Below are positions 121 to 11,578 of a stretch of 11,578 bases of DNA, piece by piece (position 1 is the stretch's first letter; every line of letters begins with the position of its first letter). The notes under the pieces were generated by a model, which was not told the DNA's origin, did not search any database, and saw only the letters and a program-made list of their open reading frames with translations. The position numbers were made by a program, and so were the translations under genes. The stretch is taken from the NCBI GenBank assembly GCA_964446725.1, contig CAYUPT010000066.1, positions 1 to 11,578 of the forward strand, written 5' to 3'. Source of the DNA: an uncultured Bradymonadales bacterium. Lineage in GTDB: Bacteria > Myxococcota_A > Bradymonadia > Bradymonadales > Bradymonadaceae.

Positions 121-414
121 TCAACCCTCTTCTTTGCGCACTTCGACCTGCAGAAGCAGGTCTTCGTCGCCGGCGCCCAGAGAGATCGCGTAGTCCAGAT
201 CGCGATTGGCCAATTCATCGTCCAGAATCGGTGCCACGCGATCGGCGAGTTGCTCCCCGGTCTCGAGTTCGTGCTGTGCTTCGCGAAGCGCAATGTAGAT
301 TGCGCCCAGGCTTCCGGCGTCGGCGCGCACGTCGTAGCCACCGAAGGTGGGAACTTCGTCGTTGATGCGAGCTGCGATCTCTTCGCAGAGTTCGTCCAGC
401 GAGGACTGGGCCAT
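121..414 (-). CDS. Small (97 aa) highly acidic hypothetical protein, last gene of the NfeD-flotillin-ATPase operon
   Basis: ATG at 412-414 with AGGAG about 6 nt upstream on the minus strand (ctcAGGAGtacgcATG). TGA stop at 121-123. Codon usage (gac/gaa/ctg/cgc, GC-rich third positions) matches neighbouring genes. It sits 53 nt downstream of the giant ATPase stop (TAG at 468-470). Net charge is strongly negative, about 25 D/E against about 7 K/R. No recognisable domain. A competing plus-strand open frame (1..807) is S/R/C-rich and judged an artefact. Confidence 0.55.
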   Translation of the reverse strand: MAQSSLDELCEEIAARINDEVPTFGGYDVRADAGSLGAIYIALREAQHELETGEQLADRVAPILDDELANRDLDYAISLGAGDEDLLLQVEVRKEEG

Positions 415-467: not shown

Positions 468-3400
468 CTACTTTGAAGTCTCGATATTTTCCAGCCGTTG
501 CAACACCTCGCCCAATTGTTCGGTGGCCTCCGATTCATCGTCGAAGTGCCGATGCATGGCTCTGGCCAGTGGGACCAGAGCGCTTTCGATAAGGCCGAGC
601 TGGGTCTCGAGGACTTCTTGGAGTTTATCCGGCACGTCGCCGCCGACATCGACGCGGACCTCGCCGTTTTGCAACGCCCGGGTCATCTGCTCGACGGCCC
701 GCTCGCTTCCGTCGGACCGGCCATTGGCCTCCGATTCACCGTCGTCTGTCGGCGCCGGCACAGCGACGGAGCGATCGGAGTTGGCCATCTCGGCGAGGGC
801 GTCGTGAATTTCGCCCAGGTGTTGAGACATTTCTCGATGATCCAGGGCCCCCTGGACGTCTTCCACGCGCTGGACCAGCGTCGCCAGCGGTCCGGCGACC
901 CGGCTGACCGGATCGTCGTCGCCGCCGCCCATCATTTTACGTCGCTGGAATTCCTGTTTGACCTCGTCCCAGCGCTGCTGCTCGTCGTCGCTGAGCGTTC
1001 CCCGCAACTCGCCGAGTTTCAACAGGTTGGCCTCGGCGCCGGTGGTCAGCGTCTGAGCTTCGTTCTGGTAGTGGTCGTCGATGACCTCGTCGAGCTCCTC
1101 TTCGTTCATCGCCGGCACGATGCGCTCCGCCATGCTCCCCATATTTCGATAACTTCCCTGGAGCAAAAACGGCGGCTCCGTGCGGTAGTCGTCGTCCTGG
1201 CCCGCGGAGCGGATGTACTCCTGGTTGACCGCCAGTACCACATCGCGGACCTGGATGTACTTTTTGAGGACTTCCACAATCTGGTTGGCCTCCACCGACG
1301 AGTAGTCGTAACTCATCTCCGTCAGTGGAATCTGTTGTCCCTCGGCCATGCGGATAAAGCGATCGACGTCTTCCGGATCGCGCCCCACAAGTTGGGCCGT
1401 CGTCTCGTTGGAGGTCAGGGCGTTTTCGATGTAGCTGCGCTCAAAAGCCTGCCGATTTCCGCTGAGGATGTCACCCAGATTGTAGATATCGGCCCGGTTG
1501 GCCAGCATATCGGGGATGCGAAATCGCTCACCGGACTCCGTATAGGGGTTTCCACCCATGACCACCGAAAAGCGCTTGCCGCGAAGATCGTAGGTCTTGG
1601 ATTCGCCGTTCCAGACGCCGTCGACGCGGCGAGTGGCGTCGCACAGCGAGATAAATTGCTGCAAAAACTCCGGCGATACATGCTGGACGTCATCGACGTA
1701 CAGCATCACGTTATTGGCCATCTCGAAGGCGAAGTTCAATTTCTCCAATTCCTGGCGCGACGTGGCACTCGGGGCCTCCGCCGGGTCCAGCGAGGTGACC
1801 TCGTGGCCCAGCGAGGGGCCGTTGACGCGGACAAACATCACGCCCAGACGGCTGGCGATGTACTCCATGAGCGTCGTCTTGCCGTAACCGGGCGGCGAGA
1901 TCAAAAACAGCAGACCGCTTCGCTCGGCGCGCGCCGAATCACCGGCGGTCCCCATCTGAGTCGCCAGGTTGTCGCCGACGATGTCGAGATACACGTCATT
2001 GATGAGCTGGTTTCGCACAAATCCGCTCATGACCTGGGGTTCCAGGTCGTCGACTTCCAGTCGCTGTGCCTCGCGCTCCACCAATTCGTGGGTTCTTCTT
2101 CGGTATTCGCGCCAGGCCGGGACGTGTTCGTCGATGTACTGGCGAAGCCGTGTCAAAAAGGCGTCGAGGCGCAACTCCATCGCTCCGTCGTCGATCCGTC
2201 CGTGATTGCCGCGAAGCCCCTCGATTTCGATGCGCATGCGCACCTCCGAGGTCTTGCGGCGCAACCGATCGCCGACCAGAAGCAATCCCACCGTCTCCGG
2301 CAGCACGTGGTGGACATCGCCGTCCACATTGCGCTCCACAAATCCCTCTAGCCAGGCCTCGACCAGATCGTAGCCGGAGGCGATATCGGACTCGATATCC
2401 TCCAGGTCCTGCTCGAAGTCGATGCGCTTGCCCTTCTTTTCGAGGGTCTCCATAAAGCGGTCGCGCAACTCCGTGGCCTCGTCGTTGACCACGAAGACCG
2501 GGTCGTCATCGACCAATTCCTGGGCCAGATAGTGGCCGGCCTCGATACAGCGGCTTCGGGTGAAGCGGCCGATCTCTGCGGTGGCCGTCTCGTCGACGGT
2601 GCGGCGAAGTCCCAGTCCGTCGATAAATTCGTCGATGGCCTCTCCCAACTCCCGGCCCAGGCCGTCGAGGGGGCGATCGTGGCCGAAAATTTCGCGCAAT
2701 CTGCCGAGGCTAACGGACTGGCGGGCCCAGCGCTGGCGGCGTTCATCGTCACTGAATGCCCAGAATAGCGACGCCGCCGCCCGGGCCTGGGGCGTAAATC
2801 GAAGCAGCCCCGCCGTCTTGTAGACACTGAGCAGGGCCTCCAGAATCTTTTCGGCGTCCTCGTCGTGCACGCCCCGCTCGTAGCCCTCGTCGTAGCGATC
2901 GGTTCGAGCTTCCTCGATGACCTCTGCCAACCCGCCGTCGTCGCGCGCCTTGTCGCGAAGCTCGTCGATGGTGTAGTCGCCGTCGCCCTCTTCGGCGTCA
3001 AATAAAATCGACGCCGCCAGAAACTCCGCCCGGTAGACGTGCTCCGTCTCCGAGACCAGTGGCTGGTCCCAGAAGGGTCGGGTCTTTTCGTACTCCGGAT
3101 CGTCGACGGGCTCGAAAAACTCGGTGCCCGTGATGTGGAGCATCATCTGGCCGCCGCGGGGAATGGCGGTCATCTCCGGGTCGCCATCGCCGATGCTGAA
3201 TTTGTGGCGACCGAGTTCAATGATGTCGTCGTCATCGCCGTACAGGTCGGCCTTGTCGCGAAGCTCGCGCACCGATTCGTCTTCTACGGAGGCCATCTGC
3301 GTCTGCAGATCGTCTGCGGCGACGCCCTCGCCGAGTTCGCGCAGCTCTTCGATCTGCTCGCGAACCCGCATGATCATCGGATCGGAGGCGAAAAAGGCGT

Positions 3401-5846
3401 TGAGATCGTCGACCGAGTCCTGGGATGCGGCCCGGCGCTTGACGTTTTCCAGGACCCGTTCGGCGGCGTCGACGATGCGCTGGGCCCGGCGCTGGCGCTC
3501 TTCGAGAAGCGTCTGCTTTCGGCTCTCGAAGGTCTCGTAGATCTCCTCGCGCTTGCGAGTCAATTTCTCCATGTAGGTATCGAATTCGCTGAAGCGACTC
3601 TCCAGCTCTTCGAGTTGCGACAACACCCGGCTGAGGCGCTCATCGCAGGCCTCCGGCGTATCGGCCATGCCCAAGGCGCTGTTGATGGTCTGGTCGAGGA
3701 GCTGAAACTGGACGGCGAATTCGGCCTTCCCCTCCTGATCGCGGACCTTCTGGAGGCGGTTTTCGAGCCCGGCGCGCACCTGGTTTTGCCGTCCCAGCAA
3801 GGCGCCGATGTCGTCGAGGATCTCCGTGCGCCGCGTCGGATCGTCGATATCGAGGTTGCTGACCACGTCGGTCAAAAGCGTCAACTGCTCGTTGATCTCC
3901 TCGACATCGTCTAACAGCGCCTCGCCCTCTTTGGTGGTCTCGAATTCGTCGGTGGCTTCCTCGAGTTCATCGAGCCGCTCGTGATACGGCGCCAGGGCGT
4001 CTTCGCCGAGCAGAAAATCGACGGTGGCTGCCGTCAACTCCTCGCTTCGCTCGACGACCTCCTCTTCGAGTTCGTCGAGGCGCTCGTCGTCGATGTAGCG
4101 CACATCGTGCAGTGTGATGAGCCGGCCGCGATGCTCTCTCAGATCGGCCAGCGCGTCGACGAATCGCTCCAGGCGACTCCAGTTGTCGAAGCGAGTGTCG
4201 ACCAGAATATCGCTCTGGCGGTCTTCGGCCTGCTGGAGGCGCTTTCGGGCGTCCTCTTTCATGGCCCGAACTTTGATGAACTCCTCGACGACCAATTCGG
4301 CGGTATCGATGATATCGCCGACCAACTCGTCGATGGCGCCAATTTCGTCTTCGCCGAGCCAGAAATAATTGTCGAGCAGTGTCTGAGCGGACTTGATGAG
4401 CGCCTCGTAGATCGTCTCGCTGGGCTCCAGATCGTCGATCATCCGGCACAGCCCGAGAATATCGGAGATCCCCTGGACCAACTCTGCATTGCCCAGATCG
4501 GTGAGACGGGAGTCGCTCTCTTTGGGCTGTTCGGCGGCGAATTCCTCGTCGTAGTACGGCGTCTCCCAGATCTGCATGGGATGGACCCGCGTCGCCTCGT
4601 CGTTCATCAGTCGAAACACGACCATCTTGCCGTCGCTAAAGATGCTGTAGCCGTGGCAATTGATCGGGTTTTCGATCTCCTTTCGGATCACGTTGTACGA
4701 CAACAGCAGATAGGTCCCCTCCTCCGGGCGATAAAAGACGTACAGATAATCCTCGCCGTTGGCGGAGCGAATCATCTCCTGGAAGCGCATGCCGTCGGTT
4801 TCGACGTCGAACTCGCGCATCGGTCCTTCCGACAGGACATAGCCTCCCGGAAAGATGACGCCCTGATCTTCGGGAAGGGTCACGCAGGACTGGCCGATGG
4901 TATCGATGCGGCGAATATCCTCGGTCAGCGAGTTAAAGACGAAATACCGCCAGTCGTCTTCTCGATAGGGAAGGACCCGAAAGACAATCAGATTGTCGAT
5001 CTGGCAGAACTGGACTTCTGCATCGCCCAGCGACTGGTGGCGATCGTCGACGGGCTCGGAGTGGATGCCTTTGCCGGACTCGGTGTTGTCCTCGACTTTG
5101 ACCGTCAATTGACCGTCCGTGCAGTCGACGAAGACGTCGTCGAGGATACAGACGTGCGGATAGCGCCCCTGGACGTGGTCTTCGCGGGTGACGTCCCGCC
5201 AGTCGAAGTCGTGCTGGCTGGGCGTGCGCAGATCGCGGCGCCCGGAGTTGTCGATGTAATCGACGTTTTCATCGGAATCGAGCGCCCACCGAAGCACCCG
5301 GATATCGTCGAGCGTCGTCCCCGTCTGAAAGACCCCCATCAGGCGATTATCGGTCTTCTGGAGCTGAATCAGACGGACGTCGCTGTAATAGGTGTACAGG
5401 CTCTCAAAATCATCGACGAATTCTTGCTGACCCAGAAAGTTCTCGGAGCGATCTTCGGCGATGGGCTCGATCTGAAATTCATCGCCGTCGGTCTCGAAGG
5501 CGTGAAAGCTGAAGACATCGTCGATATCGGTGGATTTCTTCATGCCGATATAGACGTTGTAGCCAAAGAGCAGGTGGTCATCGATATCGATGATGTCGCG
5601 CGGGATACAGTTGTGCTCGGTGCGCACGACGACCTGTCCGGCCACCGAAAGGTCGGTCCCTCCAAAGATGTCCTGGCGATGATCGTTGAGTTCGTCGGCC
5701 CGGCGCCGAAGTTCGTCGGCCTGATCGGCGAGCCGGTCGCGGATGATGTCGTAGTTGCTTCCCCGGACGTCGGTCTCTTCGCCATCCGGGGCGTTGTCGG
5801 GGGCGGATTGCGTCGATTCCTGTTCGACTGGCGCTTCGGTGGTCAT
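468..5846 (-). CDS. Giant (1792 aa) AAA+ ATPase. Beta-rich N-terminal ~480 aa, ~800 aa acidic helical region, one AAA_5/MoxR-like module near the C-terminus, ~330 aa helical tail
   Basis: Uninterrupted 5.4-kb ORF. ATG at 5844-5846 preceded by GGAG (ccGGAGtgcgccATG). TAG stop at 468-470. Walker A 'LISPPGYGKTTL', Walker B 'NVMLYVDDVQ', and an 'MGGNPYTESGERFRIP-DMLANRADIYNL' block resembling the sensor-1 / Arg / 'ALLDRF' region of MoxR/McrB/dynein-type AAA_5 domains. No obvious transmembrane segment and no VWA MIDAS motif seen. Confidence 0.9.
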   Translation of the reverse strand: MTTEAPVEQESTQSAPDNAPDGEETDVRGSNYDIIRDRLADQADELRRRADELNDHRQDIFGGTDLSVAGQVVVRTEHNCIPRDIIDIDDHLLFGYNVYIGMKKSTDIDDVFSFHAFETDGDEFQIEPIAEDRSENFLGQQEFVDDFESLYTYYSDVRLIQLQKTDNRLMGVFQTGTTLDDIRVLRWALDSDENVDYIDNSGRRDLRTPSQHDFDWRDVTREDHVQGRYPHVCILDDVFVDCTDGQLTVKVEDNTESGKGIHSEPVDDRHQSLGDAEVQFCQIDNLIVFRVLPYREDDWRYFVFNSLTEDIRRIDTIGQSCVTLPEDQGVIFPGGYVLSEGPMREFDVETDGMRFQEMIRSANGEDYLYVFYRPEEGTYLLLSYNVIRKEIENPINCHGYSIFSDGKMVVFRLMNDEATRVHPMQIWETPYYDEEFAAEQPKESDSRLTDLGNAELVQGISDILGLCRMIDDLEPSETIYEALIKSAQTLLDNYFWLGEDEIGAIDELVGDIIDTAELVVEEFIKVRAMKEDARKRLQQAEDRQSDILVDTRFDNWSRLERFVDALADLREHRGRLITLHDVRYIDDERLDELEEEVVERSEELTAATVDFLLGEDALAPYHERLDELEEATDEFETTKEGEALLDDVEEINEQLTLLTDVVSNLDIDDPTRRTEILDDIGALLGRQNQVRAGLENRLQKVRDQEGKAEFAVQFQLLDQTINSALGMADTPEACDERLSRVLSQLEELESRFSEFDTYMEKLTRKREEIYETFESRKQTLLEERQRRAQRIVDAAERVLENVKRRAASQDSVDDLNAFFASDPMIMRVREQIEELRELGEGVAADDLQTQMASVEDESVRELRDKADLYGDDDDIIELGRHKFSIGDGDPEMTAIPRGGQMMLHITGTEFFEPVDDPEYEKTRPFWDQPLVSETEHVYRAEFLAASILFDAEEGDGDYTIDELRDKARDDGGLAEVIEEARTDRYDEGYERGVHDEDAEKILEALLSVYKTAGLLRFTPQARAAASLFWAFSDDERRQRWARQSVSLGRLREIFGHDRPLDGLGRELGEAIDEFIDGLGLRRTVDETATAEIGRFTRSRCIEAGHYLAQELVDDDPVFVVNDEATELRDRFMETLEKKGKRIDFEQDLEDIESDIASGYDLVEAWLEGFVERNVDGDVHHVLPETVGLLLVGDRLRRKTSEVRMRIEIEGLRGNHGRIDDGAMELRLDAFLTRLRQYIDEHVPAWREYRRRTHELVEREAQRLEVDDLEPQVMSGFVRNQLINDVYLDIVGDNLATQMGTAGDSARAERSGLLFLISPPGYGKTTLMEYIASRLGVMFVRVNGPSLGHEVTSLDPAEAPSATSRQELEKLNFAFEMANNVMLYVDDVQHVSPEFLQQFISLCDATRRVDGVWNGESKTYDLRGKRFSVVMGGNPYTESGERFRIPDMLANRADIYNLGDILSGNRQAFERSYIENALTSNETTAQLVGRDPEDVDRFIRMAEGQQIPLTEMSYDYSSVEANQIVEVLKKYIQVRDVVLAVNQEYIRSAGQDDDYRTEPPFLLQGSYRNMGSMAERIVPAMNEEELDEVIDDHYQNEAQTLTTGAEANLLKLGELRGTLSDDEQQRWDEVKQEFQRRKMMGGGDDDPVSRVAGPLATLVQRVEDVQGALDHREMSQHLGEIHDALAEMANSDRSVAVPAPTDDGESEANGRSDGSERAVEQMTRALQNGEVRVDVGGDVPDKLQEVLETQLGLIESALVPLARAMHRHFDDESEATEQLGEVLQRLENIETSK
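1460..1950 (-). other. AAA+ (AAA_5/MoxR-type) ATPase module inside the giant ORF, about residues 1300-1460
   Basis: P-loop SPPGYGKTT encoded at 1872..1898 (checked: revcomp of cttgccgtaacc... gives LLFLISPPGYGK). Walker B MLYVDDVQHV encoded at 1677..1706 (checked by reverse translation). Sensor/Arg block GGNPYTESGERFRIPD at about 1509..1556. Confidence 0.8.
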
Positions 5847-5873
5847 GGCGCACTCCGGGCATCGAAAATCGGC

Positions 5874-5898
5874 GCCGGAGGCTCGGGAAGCCTCCGGC
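5874..5898 (-). promoter_or_regulatory. Intercistronic GC-rich stem-loop between the flotillin stop and the ATPase RBS. Perfect 10-bp stem, 5-nt loop, followed on the minus strand by GCCGATTTTCG
   Basis: Minus-strand RNA GCCGGAGGCU-UCCCG-AGCCUCCGGC, then GCCGAUUUUCGAUGCCCGGAGUGCGCCAUG. The stem ends about 27 nt before the ATPase start codon and just upstream of its GGAG. It could be a partial terminator or attenuator, or an mRNA processing or stability element. Confidence 0.45.
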
Positions 5899-5935
5899 GT
5901 TTGGGGTCCGTATCACGGGCTGTTGGTGCCGAAGG

Positions 5936-8227
5936 CTAGACCGATGCGTCTTCTCCGTCGATCTCGTCGACGGTATCGAGTTCGGTCCCCTGGACCAATT
6001 CGATGAGCTCATCGATCTTTTTGCGCCCCTCGCCCTCGGCGCGGCCTTTGACCTCGTCGAGAATCTTCGACAGCGTCAACTTCGGCGCACCATCGGTGGC
6101 CGCTTCGCCGTTGGCGCCATCGCCAACCGGCAGCGCATTGCCTCCTCCGTTGGCGCCTCCGCCGGAGAATTTGTCGACCACCGAACCCACCAGCCCTTCG
6201 GCGGTGGGACTGGTGTCCATAAAGCCCTCGATCATGTGTCCCGCCGAGATCGACTTCATGAAGTTCTGATAAAAATCGTCGTTGCCGCCGACGATGTTGA
6301 TGTCGGCTTCTGTCATCGCCTTGCCGAGGACGTCGGCCTGAGCCTGGGCGATATCGACGGCGTTTCCGATCTTCTCCATGCCCAGCTTCTCGCCGTACTC
6401 CAGCTGCAGTCGGTATTCCTCGTGCTCCAGTGCGTGGTCGCTGAAGGCGTCGATGGACTTCGCCTTTTCGGCAAGTCCCTTCGCTTCGGCGAGCAGGCGC
6501 TCCTGGATGCCTTCGGCTTCGGCGCGCTTCTTTTCGGCCAAGGCGTGGGCTTCGGCTTCGCCGGCGGCGCGCACGCCATCGGCTTCCGCCTGCTTTTGTT
6601 CGCGAAGAGCGACCGCTTCCGCCGTGCCCTTCTCCTCGGTGATTTTCGCCTCCGCCAGGCCCTCCTGTTCGAGGGCTTCGGCGTTTTGCTTTTTGACGCG
6701 AACCTGAACCATTTCGCGCTCTTCTTCGCCGGCGGCTTCCGCCTTGAGCTGTTCGCGCGTGATTTTGGCCTCCACCAATCCCTCTTTTTCGAGGGCCTGA
6801 GCGTTGGCTTCTTTGACCTCGACCTCGGCGAGTCCGGGAGCGGCCTGTTCGGCCTGCACACCTTCGGCGCGCTGCTTTTTGGCCTTGGCGATCCGTTCGG
6901 CGGCGTCGACTTCTGCATCGGCGCGCGTGATCTGCTCTTTGGCCTCGTGTTCGGCGACCTTTTCTTTGGCCTCCGCCTCTTTGATATCGGCGATCAGCGC
7001 TTCCTGGGCTTCGCCCTCGGCGGCGATGACCGACGCTTCCTTTTCGCGCTCGGCGGCCTTGACGGTGCGCAGTGTCTCGATTTCTTCTTCTTCTTCGGCC
7101 ACCGTCTTTTCGACGGCGATGCGGTCGCGCCGCACCTCGGCAACTTCCTTTTGCTCGGTCTCGACTTCCCGGTCCCGGGAAATGCTCTTGAGCTCGGTCT
7201 CCCGCTCGCGCTCCACGACCTGGAGGTCGCGCTCCTTTTTGACGTTTTCTTCTTCGACGGCCAGCACGCGCTCGCGATTCTTCGTCGCCACTTCCTGCTC
7301 GCGCTGACTTTCGATCTTGCGGATCTCCACTTCCTCCTGGGCTTCGATCTCAGCCTTCTGGGCGCGGGCAATCTCCTTGGCGCGGATCTCTTCTGCCTCC
7401 GCCTTTTGCTGAGCTTCGACGACCGAAATTTCTCGGCGCTGTTTGGCTTCAGCGTCCGCTTCCTGTCGCTCGTACTCCAGAAGCGCCTTGCGGGTCTCCA
7501 GATCGTCACGGCCAATGTCTTTTTTGGCCTTGTTTTCGAGCTCGTTTTTGTGGTGGCGCTTCTCGGCGGTAATTTCGGTGATCTTTTCGAGACCGCGGGC
7601 ATCGAGGACATTCTCCGGATCAAGTTCCCGCGCCGGGGTCTGCTCCAGATAGTCAATGGCGGCGTCTTCCAGAACGTAGCCGTTTAAGTCCTCGCCGATG
7701 ACTTCGATGATCTGTTCGCGAAATTCGACGCGCTGTCCGTACAACTCTTCGAATTCCAACTGCTTACCGACCGTCTTTAAGGCCTCCGAAAATTTCGCGG
7801 TAAACAGCTCTTCCAGTCGGTCCTGGTCGGAGGCGCGAGCACAGCCGACGGCTTCCGCCACCTTTTTGACGTCGCGCTCGGTGCGATTGACCTTGACGAA
7901 GAACGTAACCGTAATGTCGGCGCGAATATTGTCGGCGCAGATCAGACCGTCGTGACCATCTCGGGCAATCTGGATGGTCTTGACCGAGATATCCATCACC
8001 TCGGCGCGGGTGATCACCGGCCAGATAAATCCACCGGTAAAGTGGACATCCGTCTTCCACGGCAGGTTCACGATCAGGACTTCGCCCTGGTCGACCTTCT
8101 TGTAGGCCAGCATGGAACCGATAAACAAAATTACGGCCAAGCCGATAAAGCCGAACACAATCGCCCACACTCCAAGGCCGCTGAACGTGTCGAGTATCCC
8201 ATTGGCATTGGCGAGTACGAAACTCAT
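5936..8227 (-). CDS. Flotillin-like SPFH/band-7 protein (FloT/YqiK family), 763 aa, with an extended Glu/Ala-rich coiled-coil region
   Basis: ATG at 8225-8227 with GAGAGGA about 7 nt upstream. TAG stop at 5936-5938. N-terminal TM helix (GLGVWAIVFGFIGLAVILFIGSMLAY, about 8105..8176). Then an SPFH core (YKKVDQGEVLIVN...HFTGGFIWPVITRAEVMDISVKTIQI...GLICADNIRADITVTFFVKVNRTERDVKKVAEAVG, about 7540..8095) typical of YqiK/FloT. Then about 370 aa of EA/KE-rich heptad-like coiled coil and a flotillin-type C-terminal tail. Confidence 0.92.
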   Translation of the reverse strand: MSFVLANANGILDTFSGLGVWAIVFGFIGLAVILFIGSMLAYKKVDQGEVLIVNLPWKTDVHFTGGFIWPVITRAEVMDISVKTIQIARDGHDGLICADNIRADITVTFFVKVNRTERDVKKVAEAVGCARASDQDRLEELFTAKFSEALKTVGKQLEFEELYGQRVEFREQIIEVIGEDLNGYVLEDAAIDYLEQTPARELDPENVLDARGLEKITEITAEKRHHKNELENKAKKDIGRDDLETRKALLEYERQEADAEAKQRREISVVEAQQKAEAEEIRAKEIARAQKAEIEAQEEVEIRKIESQREQEVATKNRERVLAVEEENVKKERDLQVVERERETELKSISRDREVETEQKEVAEVRRDRIAVEKTVAEEEEEIETLRTVKAAEREKEASVIAAEGEAQEALIADIKEAEAKEKVAEHEAKEQITRADAEVDAAERIAKAKKQRAEGVQAEQAAPGLAEVEVKEANAQALEKEGLVEAKITREQLKAEAAGEEEREMVQVRVKKQNAEALEQEGLAEAKITEEKGTAEAVALREQKQAEADGVRAAGEAEAHALAEKKRAEAEGIQERLLAEAKGLAEKAKSIDAFSDHALEHEEYRLQLEYGEKLGMEKIGNAVDIAQAQADVLGKAMTEADINIVGGNDDFYQNFMKSISAGHMIEGFMDTSPTAEGLVGSVVDKFSGGGANGGGNALPVGDGANGEAATDGAPKLTLSKILDEVKGRAEGEGRKKIDELIELVQGTELDTVDEIDGEDASV
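6638..6877 (-). repeat. In-frame tandem duplication, two units of about 120 nt (40 aa), inside the flotillin coiled coil
   Basis: Nucleotide blocks 6638-6684 and 6758-6804 are near-identical (gtgattttcgcctccgccaggccctcctgttcgagggcttcggcgtt versus gtgattttggcctccaccaatccctctttttcgagggcctgagcgtt), spaced exactly 120 nt. They encode VEVKEANAQALEKEGLVEAKITREQLKAEA versus VRVKKQNAEALEQEGLAEAKITEEKGTAEA. Confidence 0.8.
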
Positions 8228-8284: not shown

Positions 8285-9064
8285 CTACCCGTGTTTGACT
8301 TTCGCCTTTTGTTCTTCGTGCTCTTCGGCCGCTTCTTCGAGATCTTCAAAATCGATATCTTCTAAAACGATCTTCTGCGATTCGCTTTGAGGTGTGACCT
8401 GCTGGCCCAAGACGGCGTCGAAGGGCTCGACCTCGTAAAGATTGTCGCGGTCATTAAACCCCAGAATCAGCGCCCGGTCGCCGCGCGAAAGGTCGTTGTC
8501 GTGAGGGCAGCGAATCGACAATATCAACTCCGAGCCCTCGATATACACGTTGGCTCGTCCAAACCCGTCGTCGACACGACTCGTCGACACCTCGCAGACC
8601 TGACCGATGAGATGTTCACCGGTCCTGGAACCACTTTCACCGGCGGTCAACGCCTGAAGTGGCGCCATCAACAATCCGGTGATCGGGAAGGCAAATACCG
8701 TCGCCCCCACCAGTAACAGACTGCCGATCATCCAGTTGACGTCCATGATGTACTCCTGGACGCCGAAGACGAATAAGAAACACAGACTCCACCCGGCAAA
8801 TACAAAGGTGGTCCCGAAAATACTCATCGGAACCGTCCCCAGACCAAAAGACGACAGCATCTGGAAGACCGACGATCCGGCCTCTTCGACTCCGGCGCCA
8901 TCGACCTCGACGTCCAGATCAAAGACCTCAAAACCGATACCACCGACGATCATCAGCGTTGCCACAACCATCGCCACGGCGAGCAACACCGTGTAGGCGA
9001 CGGTGGGAAAGCTAAATGCGATGTCGAGAAATTCCTGCATACAGGTGGTCTCGAATTTTGGCAC
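8285..9064 (-). CDS. NfeD-like / YqiJ-family inner-membrane protein: multi-pass N-terminal membrane region plus C-terminal OB-fold. First gene of the operon
   Basis: Hydrophobic N-terminal half (TVAYTVLLAVAMVVATLMIVGGIGF..., FGLGTVPMSIFGTTFVFAGWSLCFLFVFGV, IGSLLLVGATVFAFPITGLLMAP). C-terminal beta-barrel signature 'GEHLIGQVCEVSTSRVDDGFGRANVYIEGSELILSIRCPHDNDLSRGDRALILGFNDRDNLYEVEP' (about 8420..8617) typical of short NfeD (YqiJ) proteins. The stop lies 57 nt before the flotillin start, the classic NfeD-SPFH arrangement. The start is uncertain: GTG at 9062-9064 (longest) or ATG at 9038-9040, neither with a strong RBS. Confidence 0.85.
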   Translation of the reverse strand: MPKFETTCMQEFLDIAFSFPTVAYTVLLAVAMVVATLMIVGGIGFEVFDLDVEVDGAGVEEAGSSVFQMLSSFGLGTVPMSIFGTTFVFAGWSLCFLFVFGVQEYIMDVNWMIGSLLLVGATVFAFPITGLLMAPLQALTAGESGSRTGEHLIGQVCEVSTSRVDDGFGRANVYIEGSELILSIRCPHDNDLSRGDRALILGFNDRDNLYEVEPFDAVLGQQVTPQSESQKIVLEDIDFEDLEEAAEEHEEQKAKVKHG

Positions 9065-9171: not shown

Positions 9172-9205
9172 AAAAAAGGCCCGCCTCCAGCGGGAGACGG
9201 GCCTT
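9172..9205 (-). terminator. Rho-independent terminator downstream of the Cys-rich lipoprotein gene
   Basis: Minus-strand RNA ...AAGGCCCGUCUCCCGCUGGAGGCGGGCCUUUUUUCG. It has an 11-bp GC-rich stem (one mismatch) with a 3-nt loop, followed directly by a U6 tract (A-run 9172-9177 on the plus strand). It lies about 70 nt after the TGA at 9276-9278. Confidence 0.8.
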
Positions 9206-9275: not shown

Positions 9276-10556
9276 TCAGGGCATAATGAAGCAAAGGTCG
9301 TCATCGCTGATACAGGTACCCTGACAGCAATATTCATCACTGGCGCACTCAATGCCGCAGCTTCCGCAGTTGTCGGAGTCGCTGTCGGTATCGACGCAGT
9401 CGCCGTCGCAACTGGTGTAGCCGTCCTGGCAATAACACCCCAGAAGACTGATGGGACCGGAGCCGGTGGTGCATTCCTCGGTCTGCACATCACAGCAACT
9501 GGCAGTGGTGCCAAAGCCACATTGCGACTCGCCTTCATCGCAAAAGCAGTCGCCTTCGGAACAAGAGCCCCGATCGCCGCACTCGTAGCCACAGCTTCCA
9601 CAGTGGTCGCTGTCGACACTCAAGTCGACGCAGTCTCCGTCGCAGTTGGTATAACCGGACGCGCAGGTGCAGATACCACTGGTGCAGGTCTCGGTGGAAC
9701 CACAGGATTCGCCGCAGGCGCCACAGTTGGCGTCGCTGGAATCGAGGTCGACGCAGTCTCCGTCGCATTCGACTTCTCCGGCGTCACAGTCGGCCACGCA
9801 ACTTCCACCAGAACAGACATCACCGTCGTCACACTCGTTTCCACAACTTCCGCAGTTGGCGGAACTGCTGTCCAGATCGATGCATTCATCGCCACATCGA
9901 TCTAAGTCGGGGTCGCAACTGAAGTCACAATTTCCATTGACGCAGATGGCTGTCGCCCCGTCCGGCGCGTCGCATTCGATATCGCAGTCTCCACAGTGAT
10001 CGACATTGTCCTCGAAGTCGACACAGTCCTCATCGCATTGCGTGAAACCTTCGGCGCACTCCAGGTCACACTGGCCATCGCTGCACACCGGCGCCCCGGT
10101 CGGCGGATTCGGACAGGCCTCATCACACGCCGAGCAGTGCGAGCTGTCTTCGTCGAGATCGACGCACTCATCGCCACAGCGGGTAAAGTCGGACTCACAT
10201 TCAAAGTCGCAGACGCCCTCATCGCATACTGGCGTCCCATTTTGCGGTGCCTCGCACTGCGTATCGCAGCCCCCGCAAAAATTGGGGTCCATGTCGGTGT
10301 CGACGCACTCGTCGTTACACCATTCCTCGTGCTCATCGCATTCGGTTTCATCGTTATCGTTGTCGTCGTTCTGGTCGCCATCGTTGACATCGTTGACGTC
10401 GCCGACATCGTTGCCGGCATTGGCGTATTCATCCTGGGTGTTGCAGGCCGACAACATCGATATTGCGCCAAAACACAAAACCAGTGCCGCAATGCCGATT
10501 CGATGCAATCCAGCGGCTGGAGTCATCGCTCTCAATTCGATTAATGCTCTACTCAT
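9276..10556 (-). CDS. Secreted lipoprotein with about 8 tandem 40-aa cysteine-rich repeats (Myxococcus-type Cys-rich repeat, TIGR02232-like) behind a D/N-rich acidic linker
   Basis: ATG at 10554-10556 with AGGAG 9 nt upstream (AGGAGAATAGCATCATG). TGA at 9276-9278. Signal peptide with lipobox LSA-C (Cys38, codon 10443-10445). Linker GNDVGDVNDVNDGDQNDDNDNDE. Repeats of the form C-x2-C-x4-6-C-x2-3-C-V-D-x-D-x2-3-[HN]-C-G-x-C-[GD]-x2-C (for example CDFSCDPDLDRCGDECIDLDSSSANCGSCGNEC), about 54 Cys in total. Ends with ...LCFIMP. Confidence 0.85.
   Translation of the reverse strand: MSRALIELRAMTPAAGLHRIGIAALVLCFGAISMLSACNTQDEYANAGNDVGDVNDVNDGDQNDDNDNDETECDEHEEWCNDECVDTDMDPNFCGGCDTQCEAPQNGTPVCDEGVCDFECESDFTRCGDECVDLDEDSSHCSACDEACPNPPTGAPVCSDGQCDLECAEGFTQCDEDCVDFEDNVDHCGDCDIECDAPDGATAICVNGNCDFSCDPDLDRCGDECIDLDSSSANCGSCGNECDDGDVCSGGSCVADCDAGEVECDGDCVDLDSSDANCGACGESCGSTETCTSGICTCASGYTNCDGDCVDLSVDSDHCGSCGYECGDRGSCSEGDCFCDEGESQCGFGTTASCCDVQTEECTTGSGPISLLGCYCQDGYTSCDGDCVDTDSDSDNCGSCGIECASDEYCCQGTCISDDDLCFIMP
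9279..10346 (-). repeat. Periodic intragenic repeats (about 120-123 nt period) underlying the Cys-rich protein repeats
   Basis: Exact 21-mer gtcgacgcagtctccgtcgca at 9624..9644 and 9747..9767 (123 nt apart). Near-copy atcgacgcagtcgccgtcgca at 9390..9410. The motif gtcgacgca (encoding C-V-D on the minus strand) recurs throughout 9390-10330. Confidence 0.75.
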
Positions 10557-10751: not shown

Positions 10752-11578
10752 TCAGTCTCTGCGTCTCCACAACAAGAGTCCGAGCAACACCACCGCCGCG
10801 ACCCCACCACTGCCGCTGGTTCCCACCTGCGAACAGGTCGGCTCGTCTTCGCCGACTCCCGGCGACTCATCGTCGCTGTCATCGTCCTGACTATCGTCAT
10901 CGCCTTCGTCTTCTTCTTCCTCCTCCCCTTCTTCCTCGTCGGGACACAACATCACATCCGTGTGAGGTTCGCTGGTCCAGATGGCATCGGTTCCCGGAAT
11001 CCGAGCACTGATTTCGACTCTGTAAAACCCGTCCTCGAGAGTCTCCGCGAATTCCCGGGGCTCCGGCCCCTCGCCCTCACAGACCGCGTAGATCTGCTCT
11101 TCTCCCCAGCCGACGCGACTGGCTCCGGCGGGCACTGTTTCGTTGACTCCGGCCTGCGGCTCCCAGATATTGGAATTAACCCAGGTCTCAAAGGCAATCG
11201 CCTCGCCCCAGACTTCGGCCTCTTCGGTGGGCTCGAACTCCAGGCGCTGGTAGGCCGCCTCCACGACTTTGGAACACGACTCCTCGCCGTCGCCCTCATG
11301 GCGCACCGGCCCGATGACCGCATTATTGGGCACCCAGATCCCGAGCTCCTCCGGCAGTTCCGCCGGCTCACCGGTCTCAAAGGTCCAGGACGCCGGTTGA
11401 AGCGGACCGCCCTCTCGGCACTCCGGATCGGACTCGAATCGATAGGTTGTATCCTCCATCAATTCTTCGTCGAAAAATATCTCGTAGAGACCATCGCGGT
11501 CCCGCTCGGCGCTGATCTCCACCGCTTCATCGCTGTCATCGACATAGAGTCCAAATTCCGGGTCCTCCAGTGGAGCGA
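10752..11578 (-). CDS. Partial CDS (5' end beyond the window): secreted acidic protein ending in a MYXO-CTERM-like sorting signal
   Basis: The frame is open from the window edge. The track 'start' at 11522 is a GTG, and the codons upstream to 11578 remain in frame (...PLEDPEFGLYVDDSDEAVEISAERD...). TGA at 10752-10754. Poly-acidic spacer EEEGEEEEEDEGDDDSQDDDSDDE. C-terminus PTCSQVGTSGSGGVAAVVLLGLLLWRRRD, that is Cys, Gly/Ser stretch, hydrophobic helix and RRR, as in the MYXO-CTERM tag. No PEP or PGF motif. Confidence 0.75.
   Translation of the reverse strand, partial: APLEDPEFGLYVDDSDEAVEISAERDRDGLYEIFFDEELMEDTTYRFESDPECREGGPLQPASWTFETGEPAELPEELGIWVPNNAVIGPVRHEGDGEESCSKVVEAAYQRLEFEPTEEAEVWGEAIAFETWVNSNIWEPQAGVNETVPAGASRVGWGEEQIYAVCEGEGPEPREFAETLEDGFYRVEISARIPGTDAIWTSEPHTDVMLCPDEEEGEEEEEDEGDDDSQDDDSDDESPGVGEDEPTCSQVGTSGSGGVAAVVLLGLLLWRRRD

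What the first reader, a model, noticed from the sequence alone, without database searches (positions are those of the whole stretch)
468..5846. Unusual architecture of the giant ATPase: one MoxR/dynein-like AAA module far toward the C-terminus of a 1792-aa, very acidic, mostly helical protein
Only one P-loop module is discernible: SPPGYGKTT at residues 1317-1325, Walker B LYVDDVQ, and a sensor/Arg block GGNPYTESGERFRIPDMLANRADIYNL. It is preceded by about 480 aa of beta-rich sequence and about 800 aa of D/E-rich helical or coiled-coil sequence, and followed by about 330 aa of helical tail. The Walker B is 'DD' rather than the canonical 'DE' of AAA_5, which may alter or slow hydrolysis. I could not find a VWA/MIDAS motif, which is the usual MoxR partner domain, and I could not find a transmembrane segment. 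The layout suggests a long-arm mechanochemical or scaffold protein rather than a classic unfoldase.
Basis: seen in the sequence. Interest (0 to 1): 0.6.

Follow-up and report, generated by a model that had tools for sequence, protein, structure and literature searches.

The report
Flotillin-linked giant MoxR-like AAA+ ATPase
The giant acidic ATPase is real, but it is an ordinary member of a large, already catalogued and experimentally unstudied bacterial family that always sits next to a flotillin/NfeD membrane-scaffold gene pair, so it is probably a membrane-scaffold motor and not a 'DNA repair' enzyme.

Summary
The ORF at 468-5846 (minus strand) encodes 1792 aa with one P-loop (SPPGYGKTT, 1317-1325), Walker B LYVDDVQ and the sensor/Arg block, all at the stated positions. 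There is no TM segment, no VWA domain and no second AAA module.

The architecture is not unusual. It is the standard layout of the Pfam DUF3686 + DUF7902 + AAA family, which NCBI names 'DNA repair ATPase'. More than 3000 protein clusters and at least 585 species carry it. The layout and its gene neighbourhood were described by comparative genomics in Ravi et al. 2024.

The gene is the third of a conserved cassette, YqiJ/NfeD-like then YqiK-type flotillin then giant ATPase (77 of 84 loci). Some loci add PspA.

The 'DD' Walker B is invariant across the family. The extreme acidity is a trait of this organism's proteome.

Best reading: an ATP-driven remodeller or regulator that docks on flotillin assemblies. 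This is inferred and untested. It is a new member of a known kind.

The parts
468..5846 (-). Giant ATPase gene, 1792 aa plus stop. A member of the DUF3686/DUF7902/AAA family that NCBI names 'DNA repair ATPase'.
   Evidence: ORF list and translation. Pfam PF12458 at 630 bits, PF25472 at 89 bits, and AAA, AAA_5 and AAA_22 at 28-32 bits. More than 3000 full-length homologues.
4563..5648 (-). N-terminal beta-propeller, residues 67-428, with about 26 strands. It is the core of Pfam DUF3686 (residues 45-495) and follows a helix at residues 30-61.
   Evidence: AF2 model mf29e67fb536a, pLDDT 86. Strand count. Foldseek PDB hits are to propellers and propeller-plus-solenoid proteins: IFT-A, Elp1, CyRPA, Vps18, clathrin terminal domain and prolyl oligopeptidase. 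E-values run from 3.5e-6 to 1e-3 and TM-scores are low.
3240..4547 (-). All-helical arm, residues 434-869. The long helices are 505-550, 670-727 and 756-806. It contains Pfam DUF7902 (residues 616-699, nt 3750-4001).
   Evidence: DSSP gives 84% helix. Pfam DUF7902 E 1.8e-25. Weak PADLOC LmuB (SMC-like) hits at 519-817 are attributed to coiled-coil composition.
1953..3224 (-). Middle module, residues 875-1298: a small beta sub-domain (875-913), a helical domain (939-1191), a second small beta sub-domain (1197-1226), and a long helix (1227-1262) that leads into the AAA module.
   Evidence: AF2 model m5a5d5beff8b1, pLDDT mostly above 90 in this part. It is conserved across the family except residues 1051-1100. 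There is no alpha/beta Rossmann-like pattern, so no cryptic AAA module.
1479..1934 (-). AAA+ alpha/beta core, residues 1305-1456. It holds Walker A (1317-1325, nt 1872-1898), Walker B LYVDDVQ (1382-1388, nt 1683-1703), a pre-sensor-1 beta-hairpin (1407-1420, nt 1587-1628), sensor-1 N1433, and R1451 at the Arg-finger position (block at nt 1476-1556).
897..1478 (-). Lid and conserved helical domain, residues 1457-1650. It includes the invariant YRTEPPFxLQGSYRNM segment with candidate sensor-2 arginines R1555 and R1567.
   Evidence: Conservation. LQGSYRNM was one of two family-wide peptide patterns that retrieved 585 confirmed loci.
471..896 (-). Variable, low-confidence acidic helical tail, residues 1651-1792.
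   Evidence: pLDDT 32-66. Identity to homologues is 17-24% with gaps.
5873..5899 (-). A 12-bp GC-rich hairpin followed by CCGAUUUUCG, in the 89-nt spacer between the flotillin gene and the ATPase gene. It may be a partial terminator or attenuator. This is an inference.
   Evidence: The spacer folds at -39.5 kcal/mol with z -3.9 against shuffles. Sequence. The consensus terminator scan did not call it because the T-run is only 4 bases.
5936..8227 (-). YqiK-type flotillin, 763 aa: an N-terminal TM segment, an SPFH/Band_7 domain (residues 44-186, nt 7670-8098), a long E/A/K-rich coiled-coil region and a C-terminal flotillin-like region. It lies immediately upstream of the ATPase on the same strand.
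   Evidence: Band_7 at 51.3 bits, E 1.9e-13, on the N-terminal 230 aa. The full-length protein gives no Pfam hit. BLASTP against E. coli YqiK gives 5e-31. It is 43% identical to the Band_7 protein in the same position in L004. A homologue sits directly upstream of the ATPase gene in 77 of 84 loci.
8285..9064 (-). YqiJ/YuaF-like (NfeD2-type) membrane protein, 259 aa, or 251 aa from the alternative start at 9040. It is the first gene of the cassette.
   Evidence: The profile of 31 positional homologues against E. coli YqiJ gives hhalign probability 95.7% and E 1e-8 over 128 columns. YqiJ_N hits are weak. A homologue is found upstream of the flotillin gene in 66 of 84 loci.
9176..9205 (-). Strong intrinsic-terminator-like hairpin (13 bp, 9 GC, followed by TTTTTC). 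It ends the upstream Cys-rich lipoprotein gene and marks the 5' boundary of the three-gene unit.
   Evidence: Top hit of the terminator scan.

Best explanation
The gene encodes the cytoplasmic ATPase subunit of a conserved three-gene membrane module: a YqiJ/NfeD-like membrane protein, a YqiK-type flotillin (SPFH scaffold), and this giant AAA+ protein. Shown: the protein consists of an N-terminal beta-propeller, a helical arm of roughly 870 residues with two small beta inserts, one AAA+ module of the pre-sensor-1-hairpin type that is structurally closest to MoxR/dynein-class motors, and a helical tail. Its nucleotide-site residues are invariant (Walker A K/T, Walker B DD, sensor-1 N, and an Arg at the Arg-finger position). 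Inferred: like other MoxR-class AAA+ proteins it assembles into a ring, using R1451 in trans. The ring would project propeller-tipped arms that dock on the cytoplasmic flotillin/NfeD assembly. ATP binding and hydrolysis would then assemble, disassemble or reshape the flotillin oligomer, or extract or hand over client proteins held in it, as part of membrane maintenance and envelope-stress response. The closest analogies are Vps4 acting on ESCRT-III, FtsH held inside the HflK/C cage, and MoxR proteins remodelling their targets. The invariant DD(I/V)QH Walker B is the same DDIQ core as in E. coli DnaA. Together with the lack of an aromatic pore loop, this suggests slow or partner-stimulated hydrolysis and a switch or remodeller mode, not processive threading. 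The 'DNA repair ATPase' name is most probably an annotation artefact that arose from the coiled-coil-like arm.
For: Synteny. A flotillin homologue lies directly upstream in 77 of 84 loci and a YqiJ-like gene upstream of that in 66 of 84. These loci span Myxococcota, Actinomycetota, Gammaproteobacteria, Acidobacteriota and plasmid pQBR103. The flotillin and ATPase genes overlap by one base in L002 and are 10 nt apart in L004.

Partner identity. Band_7 at 51 bits. YqiK BLASTP 5e-31. YqiJ hhalign 95.7%.

Link to membrane stress. PspA/IM30 lies next to the cassette in L004. In pQBR103 it lies in the same same-strand gene run, six genes upstream of the cassette. The published comparative-genomic description matches (PMC11237479).

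Whole-length selection. The propeller, arm and AAA module are all conserved at 40-78% identity.

Other points. The protein has no TM segment, so it is cytoplasmic. E. coli DnaA carries LLIDDIQFF.
Against: There is no experimental datum for any family member in the searchable literature. Physical interaction with flotillin, ring formation and ATPase activity were not tested here. The MoxR-class assignment rests on a predicted structure, because sequence profiles align only the P-loop. A helix-2 beta-hairpin insert, which is typical of the MoxR/dynein clade, is not seen as a hairpin in the model. This window and its 16-kb parent contig carry no PspA. Most flotillin/NfeD pairs, including E. coli yqiJK, work without such an ATPase, so it is an accessory and not a core component.
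Confidence: 0.55

Rival explanations
1. The protein is a coat-like or switch-like scaffold and not a working motor. The beta-propeller plus helical-solenoid arm would resemble a membrane-coat protein. With flotillin it would build or curve a sub-membrane lattice. The AAA+ module, with its DD Walker B, would act mainly as an ATP-bound oligomerisation switch with very slow turnover, as in initiator-type AAA+ proteins.
For: Foldseek's best hits for residues 1-900 are propeller-plus-solenoid proteins: IFT-A, Elp1, clathrin terminal domain plus linker, Vps18 and a nucleoporin. The Walker B is DD instead of DE in every member, and DnaA shares the DDIQ core. There is no aromatic pore loop.
Confidence: 0.15
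2. The cassette is an anti-phage or other conflict system. The flotillin/NfeD pair would be a membrane-acting effector or sensor platform, and the giant ATPase would be the sensor or activator.
For: The cassette occurs on megaplasmids and secondary replicons, including pQBR103 and Streptomyces and Deinococcus plasmids. Some loci lie next to a ParE toxin gene or IS66 elements. Giant multi-domain NTPases are common in defence systems (general knowledge).
Against: No significant PADLOC hit for any of the cassette proteins. No homologue in 50,697 phage records. No nuclease, protease or other obvious effector lies in the cassette. Full-length conservation across phyla is 40-50% with fixed gene order, and the recurrent neighbours are PspA and polyamine genes, not defence islands.
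Confidence: 0.1
3. It is what its database name says: a DNA repair ATPase related to SMC, SbcC or Rad50.
For: NCBI and Pfam both use that label: 'DNA repair ATPase' and 'ATPase involved in DNA repair'. Weak PADLOC LmuB (SMC-like) hits fall in the helical arm, E about 2e-4. A knockout of a YqiK-family flotillin in Shewanella raised the spontaneous mutation rate (PMC1468410), but that paper attributes the effect to iron and oxidative stress and reports no ATPase gene in the operon.
Against: The ATPase is one contiguous AAA+ module, not a split ABC-type head. No nuclease partner and no recognisable DNA-binding domain are present. The invariant neighbours are membrane proteins. The helices in the model are short, not a long antiparallel coiled coil. 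From my own knowledge, 'ATPase involved in DNA repair' is the COG name of SbcC, so the label probably spread through coiled-coil similarity.
Confidence: 0.03

Closest known systems
DUF3686/DUF7902/AAA family (Pfam PF12458 + PF25472; NCBI 'DNA repair ATPase'), for example the Persicimonas caeni protein (P0010) and pQBR103 WP_011922896.1
   Same: Collinear over the full length: 58% identity to Persicimonas and 41% to pQBR103. Same domain order, same invariant motifs (SPPGYGKT, DD[IV]QH, GNPY, LANRAD, LQGSYRNM) and same upstream flotillin and YqiJ-like genes.
   Different: This copy and its nearest relatives are much more acidic (pI 4.4 against a family median of 5.1), which tracks the host proteome. 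The C-terminal 140 residues are lineage-specific.
'Beta-propeller + coiled-coil + AAA-ATPase' protein of YqiJ/YuaF and Band-7/flotillin operons, described by Ravi et al. 2024 (PMC11237479)
   Same: Same architecture and same gene order (YqiJ/YuaF, then Band-7 + coiled coil + flotillin, then ATPase). The paper states that the abbreviated three-gene form is widespread.
   Different: The paper's prototype operon also carries CesT/Tir and PspA, and sometimes a phospholipase D. None of these is in this window or its 16-kb contig. The paper offers only a contextual inference and no experiment. I could not retrieve its example protein to align it directly.
MoxR-class AAA+ ATPases (CbbQ, NorQ, RavA; Pfam AAA_5), with dynein and midasin AAA modules
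   Different: There is no VWA/MIDAS partner. Walker B is DD, not DE; RavA has FLDEIW. About 1300 residues of propeller and arm precede the module. No helix-2 beta-hairpin is seen. Sequence-profile similarity to RavA is limited to the P-loop. Dynein and midasin concatenate six modules, whereas this protein has one.
SPFH scaffold plus AAA+ enzyme pairs: HflK/C-FtsH in bacteria and SLP2-YME1L-PARL in mitochondria (my own knowledge, plus abstracts listed)
   Same: The principle is the same: an SPFH-family membrane scaffold is genetically or physically paired with a dedicated AAA+ enzyme. In pQBR103 a rhomboid protease gene also lies six genes upstream of the ATPase gene, in the same same-strand gene run.
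   Different: The ATPase here has no protease domain and no TM anchor, and it belongs to a different AAA+ clade. The flotillin is YqiK-type, whose SPFH domain is expected to face the cytoplasm.
Vps4-ESCRT-III, and the PspA-associated AAA+ ATPases
   Same: An AAA+ enzyme with an N-terminal recognition module is encoded beside a membrane-remodelling polymer. PspA and a second 588-aa AAA protein lie immediately downstream of the cassette in L004.
   Different: Vps4 is a classical-clade threading enzyme with aromatic pore loops and an MIT domain. This protein has none of these, and its constant partner is flotillin, not PspA.

Membership tests
DUF3686-type giant AAA+ ('DNA repair ATPase', PF12458 family) | N-terminal DUF3686 domain matched over its full length | tested here: met
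   PF12458 E 2.3e-189, 630 bits, profile positions 1-448 of 448, residues 45-495
DUF3686-type giant AAA+ ('DNA repair ATPase', PF12458 family) | DUF7902 in the helical arm and one C-terminal AAA module carrying the family motifs SPPGYGKT and LQGSYRNM | tested here: met
   PF25472 at 89.4 bits. Both motifs are present and invariant. They retrieved 585 confirmed loci.
DUF3686-type giant AAA+ ('DNA repair ATPase', PF12458 family) | Encoded directly downstream of a YqiJ/NfeD-like gene and a YqiK-type flotillin gene | tested here: met
   Window genes 8285-9064 and 5936-8227. The same order holds in 77 of 84 loci for flotillin and 66 of 84 for the YqiJ-like gene.
AAA+ superfamily | Walker A GK[ST], Walker B acidic pair after a hydrophobic strand, sensor-1 polar residue, Arg finger before beta5, and a helical lid | tested here: met
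MoxR / AAA_5 (helix-2-insert clade) | Closest structural relatives are MoxR, dynein or midasin modules, and the AAA_5 HMM scores above its cut-off | tested here: met
MoxR / AAA_5 (helix-2-insert clade) | Pre-sensor-1 beta-hairpin | tested here: met
   Strands 1407-1412 and 1415-1420 lie between alpha3 and beta4 in the model, pLDDT 84-94.
MoxR / AAA_5 (helix-2-insert clade) | Beta-hairpin inserted in helix 2 | tested here: inconclusive
   Residues 1343-1360 between beta2 and alpha2 form a confident (pLDDT 94-96), highly conserved ordered loop. DSSP shows no hairpin there. Coordinates could not be inspected.
MoxR / AAA_5 (helix-2-insert clade) | Canonical Walker B hhhhDE | tested here: not met
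   DD is invariant in 99 aligned homologues and 85 loci. E. coli RavA has FLDEIW.
MoxR / AAA_5 (helix-2-insert clade) | Partner protein or domain with VWA/MIDAS | tested here: not met
   There is no VWA hit in any window ORF. None is listed among the called neighbours of L002, L003, L004 or pQBR103.
MoxR / AAA_5 (helix-2-insert clade) | Sequence-profile similarity to a bona fide MoxR protein across the module | tested here: not met
   hhalign of the family AAA profile against E. coli RavA gives probability 21% with 22 columns aligned (P-loop only). RuvB gives 95.7% with 41 columns. The profile against all PDB sequences matches only a 34-residue P-loop stretch.
SMC / SbcC / Rad50-type DNA repair ATPases | Split ABC-type head (Walker A at the N-terminus, signature motif and Walker B at the C-terminus) joined by a long antiparallel coiled coil, with a nuclease partner | tested here: not met
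   There is one contiguous AAA+ module at residues 1305-1456 and no N-terminal P-loop. Helices are at most 58 residues. No SbcD/Mre11-like gene is in the window.
PSP (PspA/IM30) envelope-stress operons | A PspA/IM30 gene in the same operon | tested here: not met
   There is none in the window or its 16-kb contig. PspA is next to the cassette in L004 and in the same gene run, six genes upstream of it, in pQBR103. tblastn with the L004 PspA found it in only 1 of 84 loci at E<=1e-5.
Known anti-phage defence systems (PADLOC-DB 2.0) | A significant match of any cassette protein to a defence-system model | tested here: not met
   The best hits are LmuB at E 1.6e-4 in the coiled-coil-like arm and a generic 2TM model at E 0.03.

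The most novel reading that the evidence does not exclude
The cassette encodes a bacterial ATP-driven cycle for flotillin assemblies. A ring of MoxR/dynein-like AAA+ modules would carry six propeller-tipped helical arms of about 1300 residues each, dock on the cytoplasmic flotillin/NfeD cage, and mechanically open, disassemble or re-shape it, or pull clients out of it. This would be the first dedicated motor for an SPFH scaffold other than FtsH-type proteases. It would be a prokaryotic counterpart of coat and uncoating machineries.
Probability: 0.3. Interest if true: 0.7.

Novelty: new member of a known kind. Interest (0 to 1): 0.35.

Why it matters
For genome annotation, the finding shows that the label 'DNA repair ATPase', which is attached to thousands of proteins, has no support from fold, partners or context, and that these proteins belong with flotillin/NfeD membrane modules. 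For biology, bacterial flotillins are thought to organise membrane microdomains and to hold unfolded membrane proteins without using ATP. A dedicated giant AAA+ partner present in at least 585 species, including Pseudomonas, Stenotrophomonas, Streptomyces relatives and myxobacteria, would add an energy-consuming step to that picture. This can be tested directly in tractable hosts. The specific copy in this window adds nothing beyond another orthologue from an acidic-proteome myxobacterial lineage.

Tried and rejected
1. Full-length Pfam and NCBIfam scans of the two upstream proteins gave nothing. The SPFH domain appeared only when the N-terminal 230 aa were scanned alone. The YqiJ relation needed a profile of 31 positional homologues. 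The same profile found no PDB sequence.

2. Sequence searches of the ATPase against PDB matched only the P-loop, both as a single sequence and as a 99-sequence profile. There is therefore no solved relative.

3. Sequence-profile clade assignment against E. coli DnaA, RavA, ClpX, Lon, DnaX, RuvB and FtsH aligned only 20-41 columns around the P-loop. It cannot rank clades.

5. The defence-system idea has no PADLOC support and no phage homologues.

6. The cryptic second AAA module is rejected from the secondary-structure maps of both models.

7. Literature searches for DUF3686, PF12458, 'DNA repair ATPase' with flotillin, and MoxR with SPFH or flotillin found no experimental study.

8. The 97-aa ORF downstream (121-414) was considered as a fourth component. 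It is conserved only in the closest relative.

9. I did not use the search of protein representatives. Its top 150 hits would all have been family members and would not have changed any conclusion.

10. Model coordinates could not be exported. I therefore could not check the blade count, the arm geometry, the sensor-2 position or the pore architecture.
Full report
**Observation**

The window carries a 1792-codon ORF on the minus strand at 468-5846. A P-loop regular expression matches only once. The protein has pI 4.4 and 21.9% D+E, and no hydrophobic stretch that could be a TM segment. It is a real gene: more than 3000 protein clusters match at full length with E=0.

**Family**

- Pfam places residues 45-495 in DUF3686 (PF12458, 630 bits, full profile length; its description reads 'ATPase involved in DNA repair').
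- Residues 616-699 fall in DUF7902. The P-loop region matches AAA_22, AAA and AAA_5 at only 28-32 bits each.
- Homologues are 46-82% identical over 90-100% of the length. Where named, they carry the NCBI label 'DNA repair ATPase' (Persicimonas caeni, 58%).
These come from Myxococcota, Actinomycetota, Gammaproteobacteria (Pseudomonas, Stenotrophomonas, Marinobacter, Cellvibrionaceae) and Acidobacteriota.
- Thirteen PLSDB records carry the gene, including megaplasmid pQBR103. No phage record does.

**Anatomy**

Two AlphaFold2 models were built on a 99-sequence alignment. Residues 1-900 gave pLDDT 86.0 and residues 871-1792 gave pLDDT 84.6. Combined with the strand and conservation counts, they give this map:

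| Residues | Feature |
|---|---|
| 1-22 | disordered |
| 30-61 | helix |
| 67-428 | all-beta domain of about 26 strands |
| 434-869 | all-alpha arm; longest helices 46-58 residues |
| 875-913 | small beta unit |
| 939-1191 | helical domain |
| 1197-1226 | second small beta unit |
| 1227-1262 | long helix |
| 1305-1456 | one alpha/beta AAA core |
| up to about 1650 | lid and further conserved helices |
| 1651-1792 | poorly conserved, low-confidence helical tail |

Foldseek matches the N-terminal half to beta-propellers and propeller-plus-solenoid proteins (IFT-A, Elp1, CyRPA, Vps18, clathrin terminal domain). E-values are 1e-6 to 1e-3 but TM-scores are low. That supports 'beta-propeller' and nothing more specific. 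Neither model contains a second Rossmann-like module, so there is no cryptic AAA domain. The protein is conserved along almost its whole length, so the propeller and arm are functional parts and not spacer.

**The AAA+ module**

- Strand order, P-loop, Walker B, sensor-1 (N1433) and an arginine at the end of the helix before beta5 (R1451, the Arg-finger position) are all present. All are invariant in 99 homologues.
- A beta-hairpin (1407-1420) lies between alpha3 and beta4, which is the pre-sensor-1 position.
- Foldseek gives RuvB the best E-value, but NorQ and CbbQ have the best target TM-scores at 0.59-0.63.
- At the sequence level nothing beyond the P-loop aligns with any solved protein or with E. 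coli RavA, RuvB, ClpX, Lon, FtsH, DnaX or DnaA.

Three features that usually accompany MoxR proteins fail: the DE Walker B, a VWA/MIDAS partner, and sequence-profile similarity. A helix-2 hairpin is not evident.

The Walker B is DD[IV]QH in every one of 99 aligned homologues and 85 loci. It is a fixed family trait. E. coli DnaA has the same DDIQ core, LLIDDIQFF. From general knowledge, DnaA hydrolyses ATP slowly and under partner control. A slow or partner-stimulated cycle is therefore a reasonable inference, though untested. The loop between beta2 and alpha2 is conserved but lacks an aromatic pore-loop motif. This argues against a classical threading unfoldase.

- Immediately upstream on the same strand lies a 763-aa protein. 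Its N-terminal 230 residues match Pfam Band_7/SPFH (51 bits). The whole protein aligns with E. coli flotillin YqiK (5e-31). The full-length protein gives no Pfam hit at all, apparently because its long E/A/K-rich region triggers the bias filter.
- Upstream of that is a 259-aa multi-TM protein. The profile of its positional homologues matches E. coli YqiJ, an NfeD-type partner of YqiK (hhalign 95.7%, E 1e-8).
- A strong terminator at 9176-9205 separates this trio from the preceding gene.
- Across 84 loci from at least four phyla and one plasmid, a flotillin homologue lies directly upstream of the giant gene in 77, and a YqiJ-like gene upstream of that in 66. Most exceptions are truncated contigs.
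- Gene junctions can overlap (L002) or be 10 nt apart (L004).
- In L004 the cassette is followed by PspA/IM30 and a second AAA protein.
- In pQBR103 it ends a run of PspA, rhomboid, DUF2491, DUF350, DUF1190 and glutathionylspermidine-synthase-like genes.
- Exactly this arrangement is described in Ravi et al. 2024. [quoted passage not shown] - I found no experimental work on any member.

**Mechanism**

Shown: domain composition, conserved nucleotide-site residues, absence of a membrane anchor, and near-obligate genetic linkage to a YqiK-type flotillin and its NfeD partner.

Inferred: the protein forms a MoxR-like ring. Its propeller and arms dock on the cytoplasmic flotillin/NfeD assembly. ATP binding and hydrolysis remodel that assembly or the clients it holds, as part of membrane maintenance or stress response.

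I put about 0.85 on functional coupling to flotillin and about 0.35 on scaffold remodelling or client extraction as the specific act, giving 0.55 for the explanation as stated. The rivals are:

- a largely structural, switch-like coat protein (0.15);
- a defence or conflict system (0.10), which has no PADLOC or phage support;
- a genuine DNA repair ATPase (0.03), contradicted by fold, partners and the lack of any DNA-related domain.

The database name probably spread from coiled-coil similarity to SbcC-type proteins. This is my inference; the weak LmuB hits in the arm point the same way.

**Other points**

- The extreme acidity is shared by every ORF in the window (pI 4.05-4.7), whereas the family median is pI 5.1. 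It reflects the organism.
- The neighbours include an MXAN_6577-like Cys-rich lipoprotein and a protein with a borderline MYXO-CTERM signal. The nearest relatives are Bradymonadales or 'Myxococcales' MAGs. The source is most likely a myxobacterial-lineage, halophile-like organism.

**Verdict**

The 'unusual architecture' is a rediscovery of a catalogued family that comparative genomics has already described. The functionally informative feature is the flotillin/NfeD operon. This is a new member of a known kind. Interest is moderate to low for this window, but the family itself is a worthwhile experimental target.

Noticed in passing
window 9276-10556 (-): A 426-aa, extremely Asp- and Cys-rich protein with a lipoprotein-like N-terminus (…LSAC). 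It matches the NCBIfam MXAN_6577-like cysteine-rich protein (197.8 bits) and has five Pfam Stig1 repeats. It is separated from the flotillin cassette by a strong terminator.
   Followed up: partly
window 10752-11522 (-) (350 aa in L001:1156-2208): An acidic protein that ends in …PTCSQVGTSGSGGVAAVVLLGLLLWRRRD. This is a borderline MYXO-CTERM sorting signal (TIGR03901, 19.9 bits against a cut-off of 20) and points to a Myxococcota-lineage source.
   Followed up: partly
whole window (all six ORFs examined): Every protein has pI 4.05-4.7 and 15-27% D+E. This is a halophile-like acidic proteome. It explains the 'very acidic' character of the ATPase, whose family median is pI 5.1.
   Followed up: yes
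window 5873-5899 (-), in the 89-nt spacer 5847-5935: A 12-bp GC-rich hairpin followed by CCGAUUUUCG lies between the flotillin stop codon and the ATPase start codon. The spacer folds at -39.5 kcal/mol with z -3.9. It could lower ATPase expression relative to flotillin. Its conservation was not checked.
   Followed up: partly
window 5936-8227 (-): The full-length flotillin gives no Pfam hit even at E<=10, and the precomputed tables also show '-' for its orthologues. The N-terminal 230 aa alone score 51 bits on Band_7. Coiled-coil-rich SPFH proteins are therefore systematically missed by full-length scans. In my reading of the translation, the coiled-coil region also contains an apparent internal duplication at about residues 465-545.
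   Followed up: partly
window 121-414 (-): A 97-aa acidic ORF directly downstream of the ATPase gene has no family hit. It is conserved only in the closest relative, L005, at 44% identity. It is probably lineage-specific and not part of the cassette.
   Followed up: yes
L085 (pQBR103, NC_009444.1 85413-104605) and L004:15453-18026: In pQBR103 the cassette ends a same-strand gene run of PspA, rhomboid, DUF2491, DUF350, DUF1190 and a glutathionylspermidine-synthase-like gene. In L004 it is followed by PspA_IM30 and a second 588-aa AAA protein. These links to PSP and polyamine genes are variable.
   Followed up: partly
window 498-2351 (+) and 3981-5939 (+): Long antisense ORFs of 617 and 652 aa lie opposite the ATPase gene. 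I assume they are stop-poor antisense frames, as expected at about 60% GC. They were not checked for homologues.
   Followed up: no
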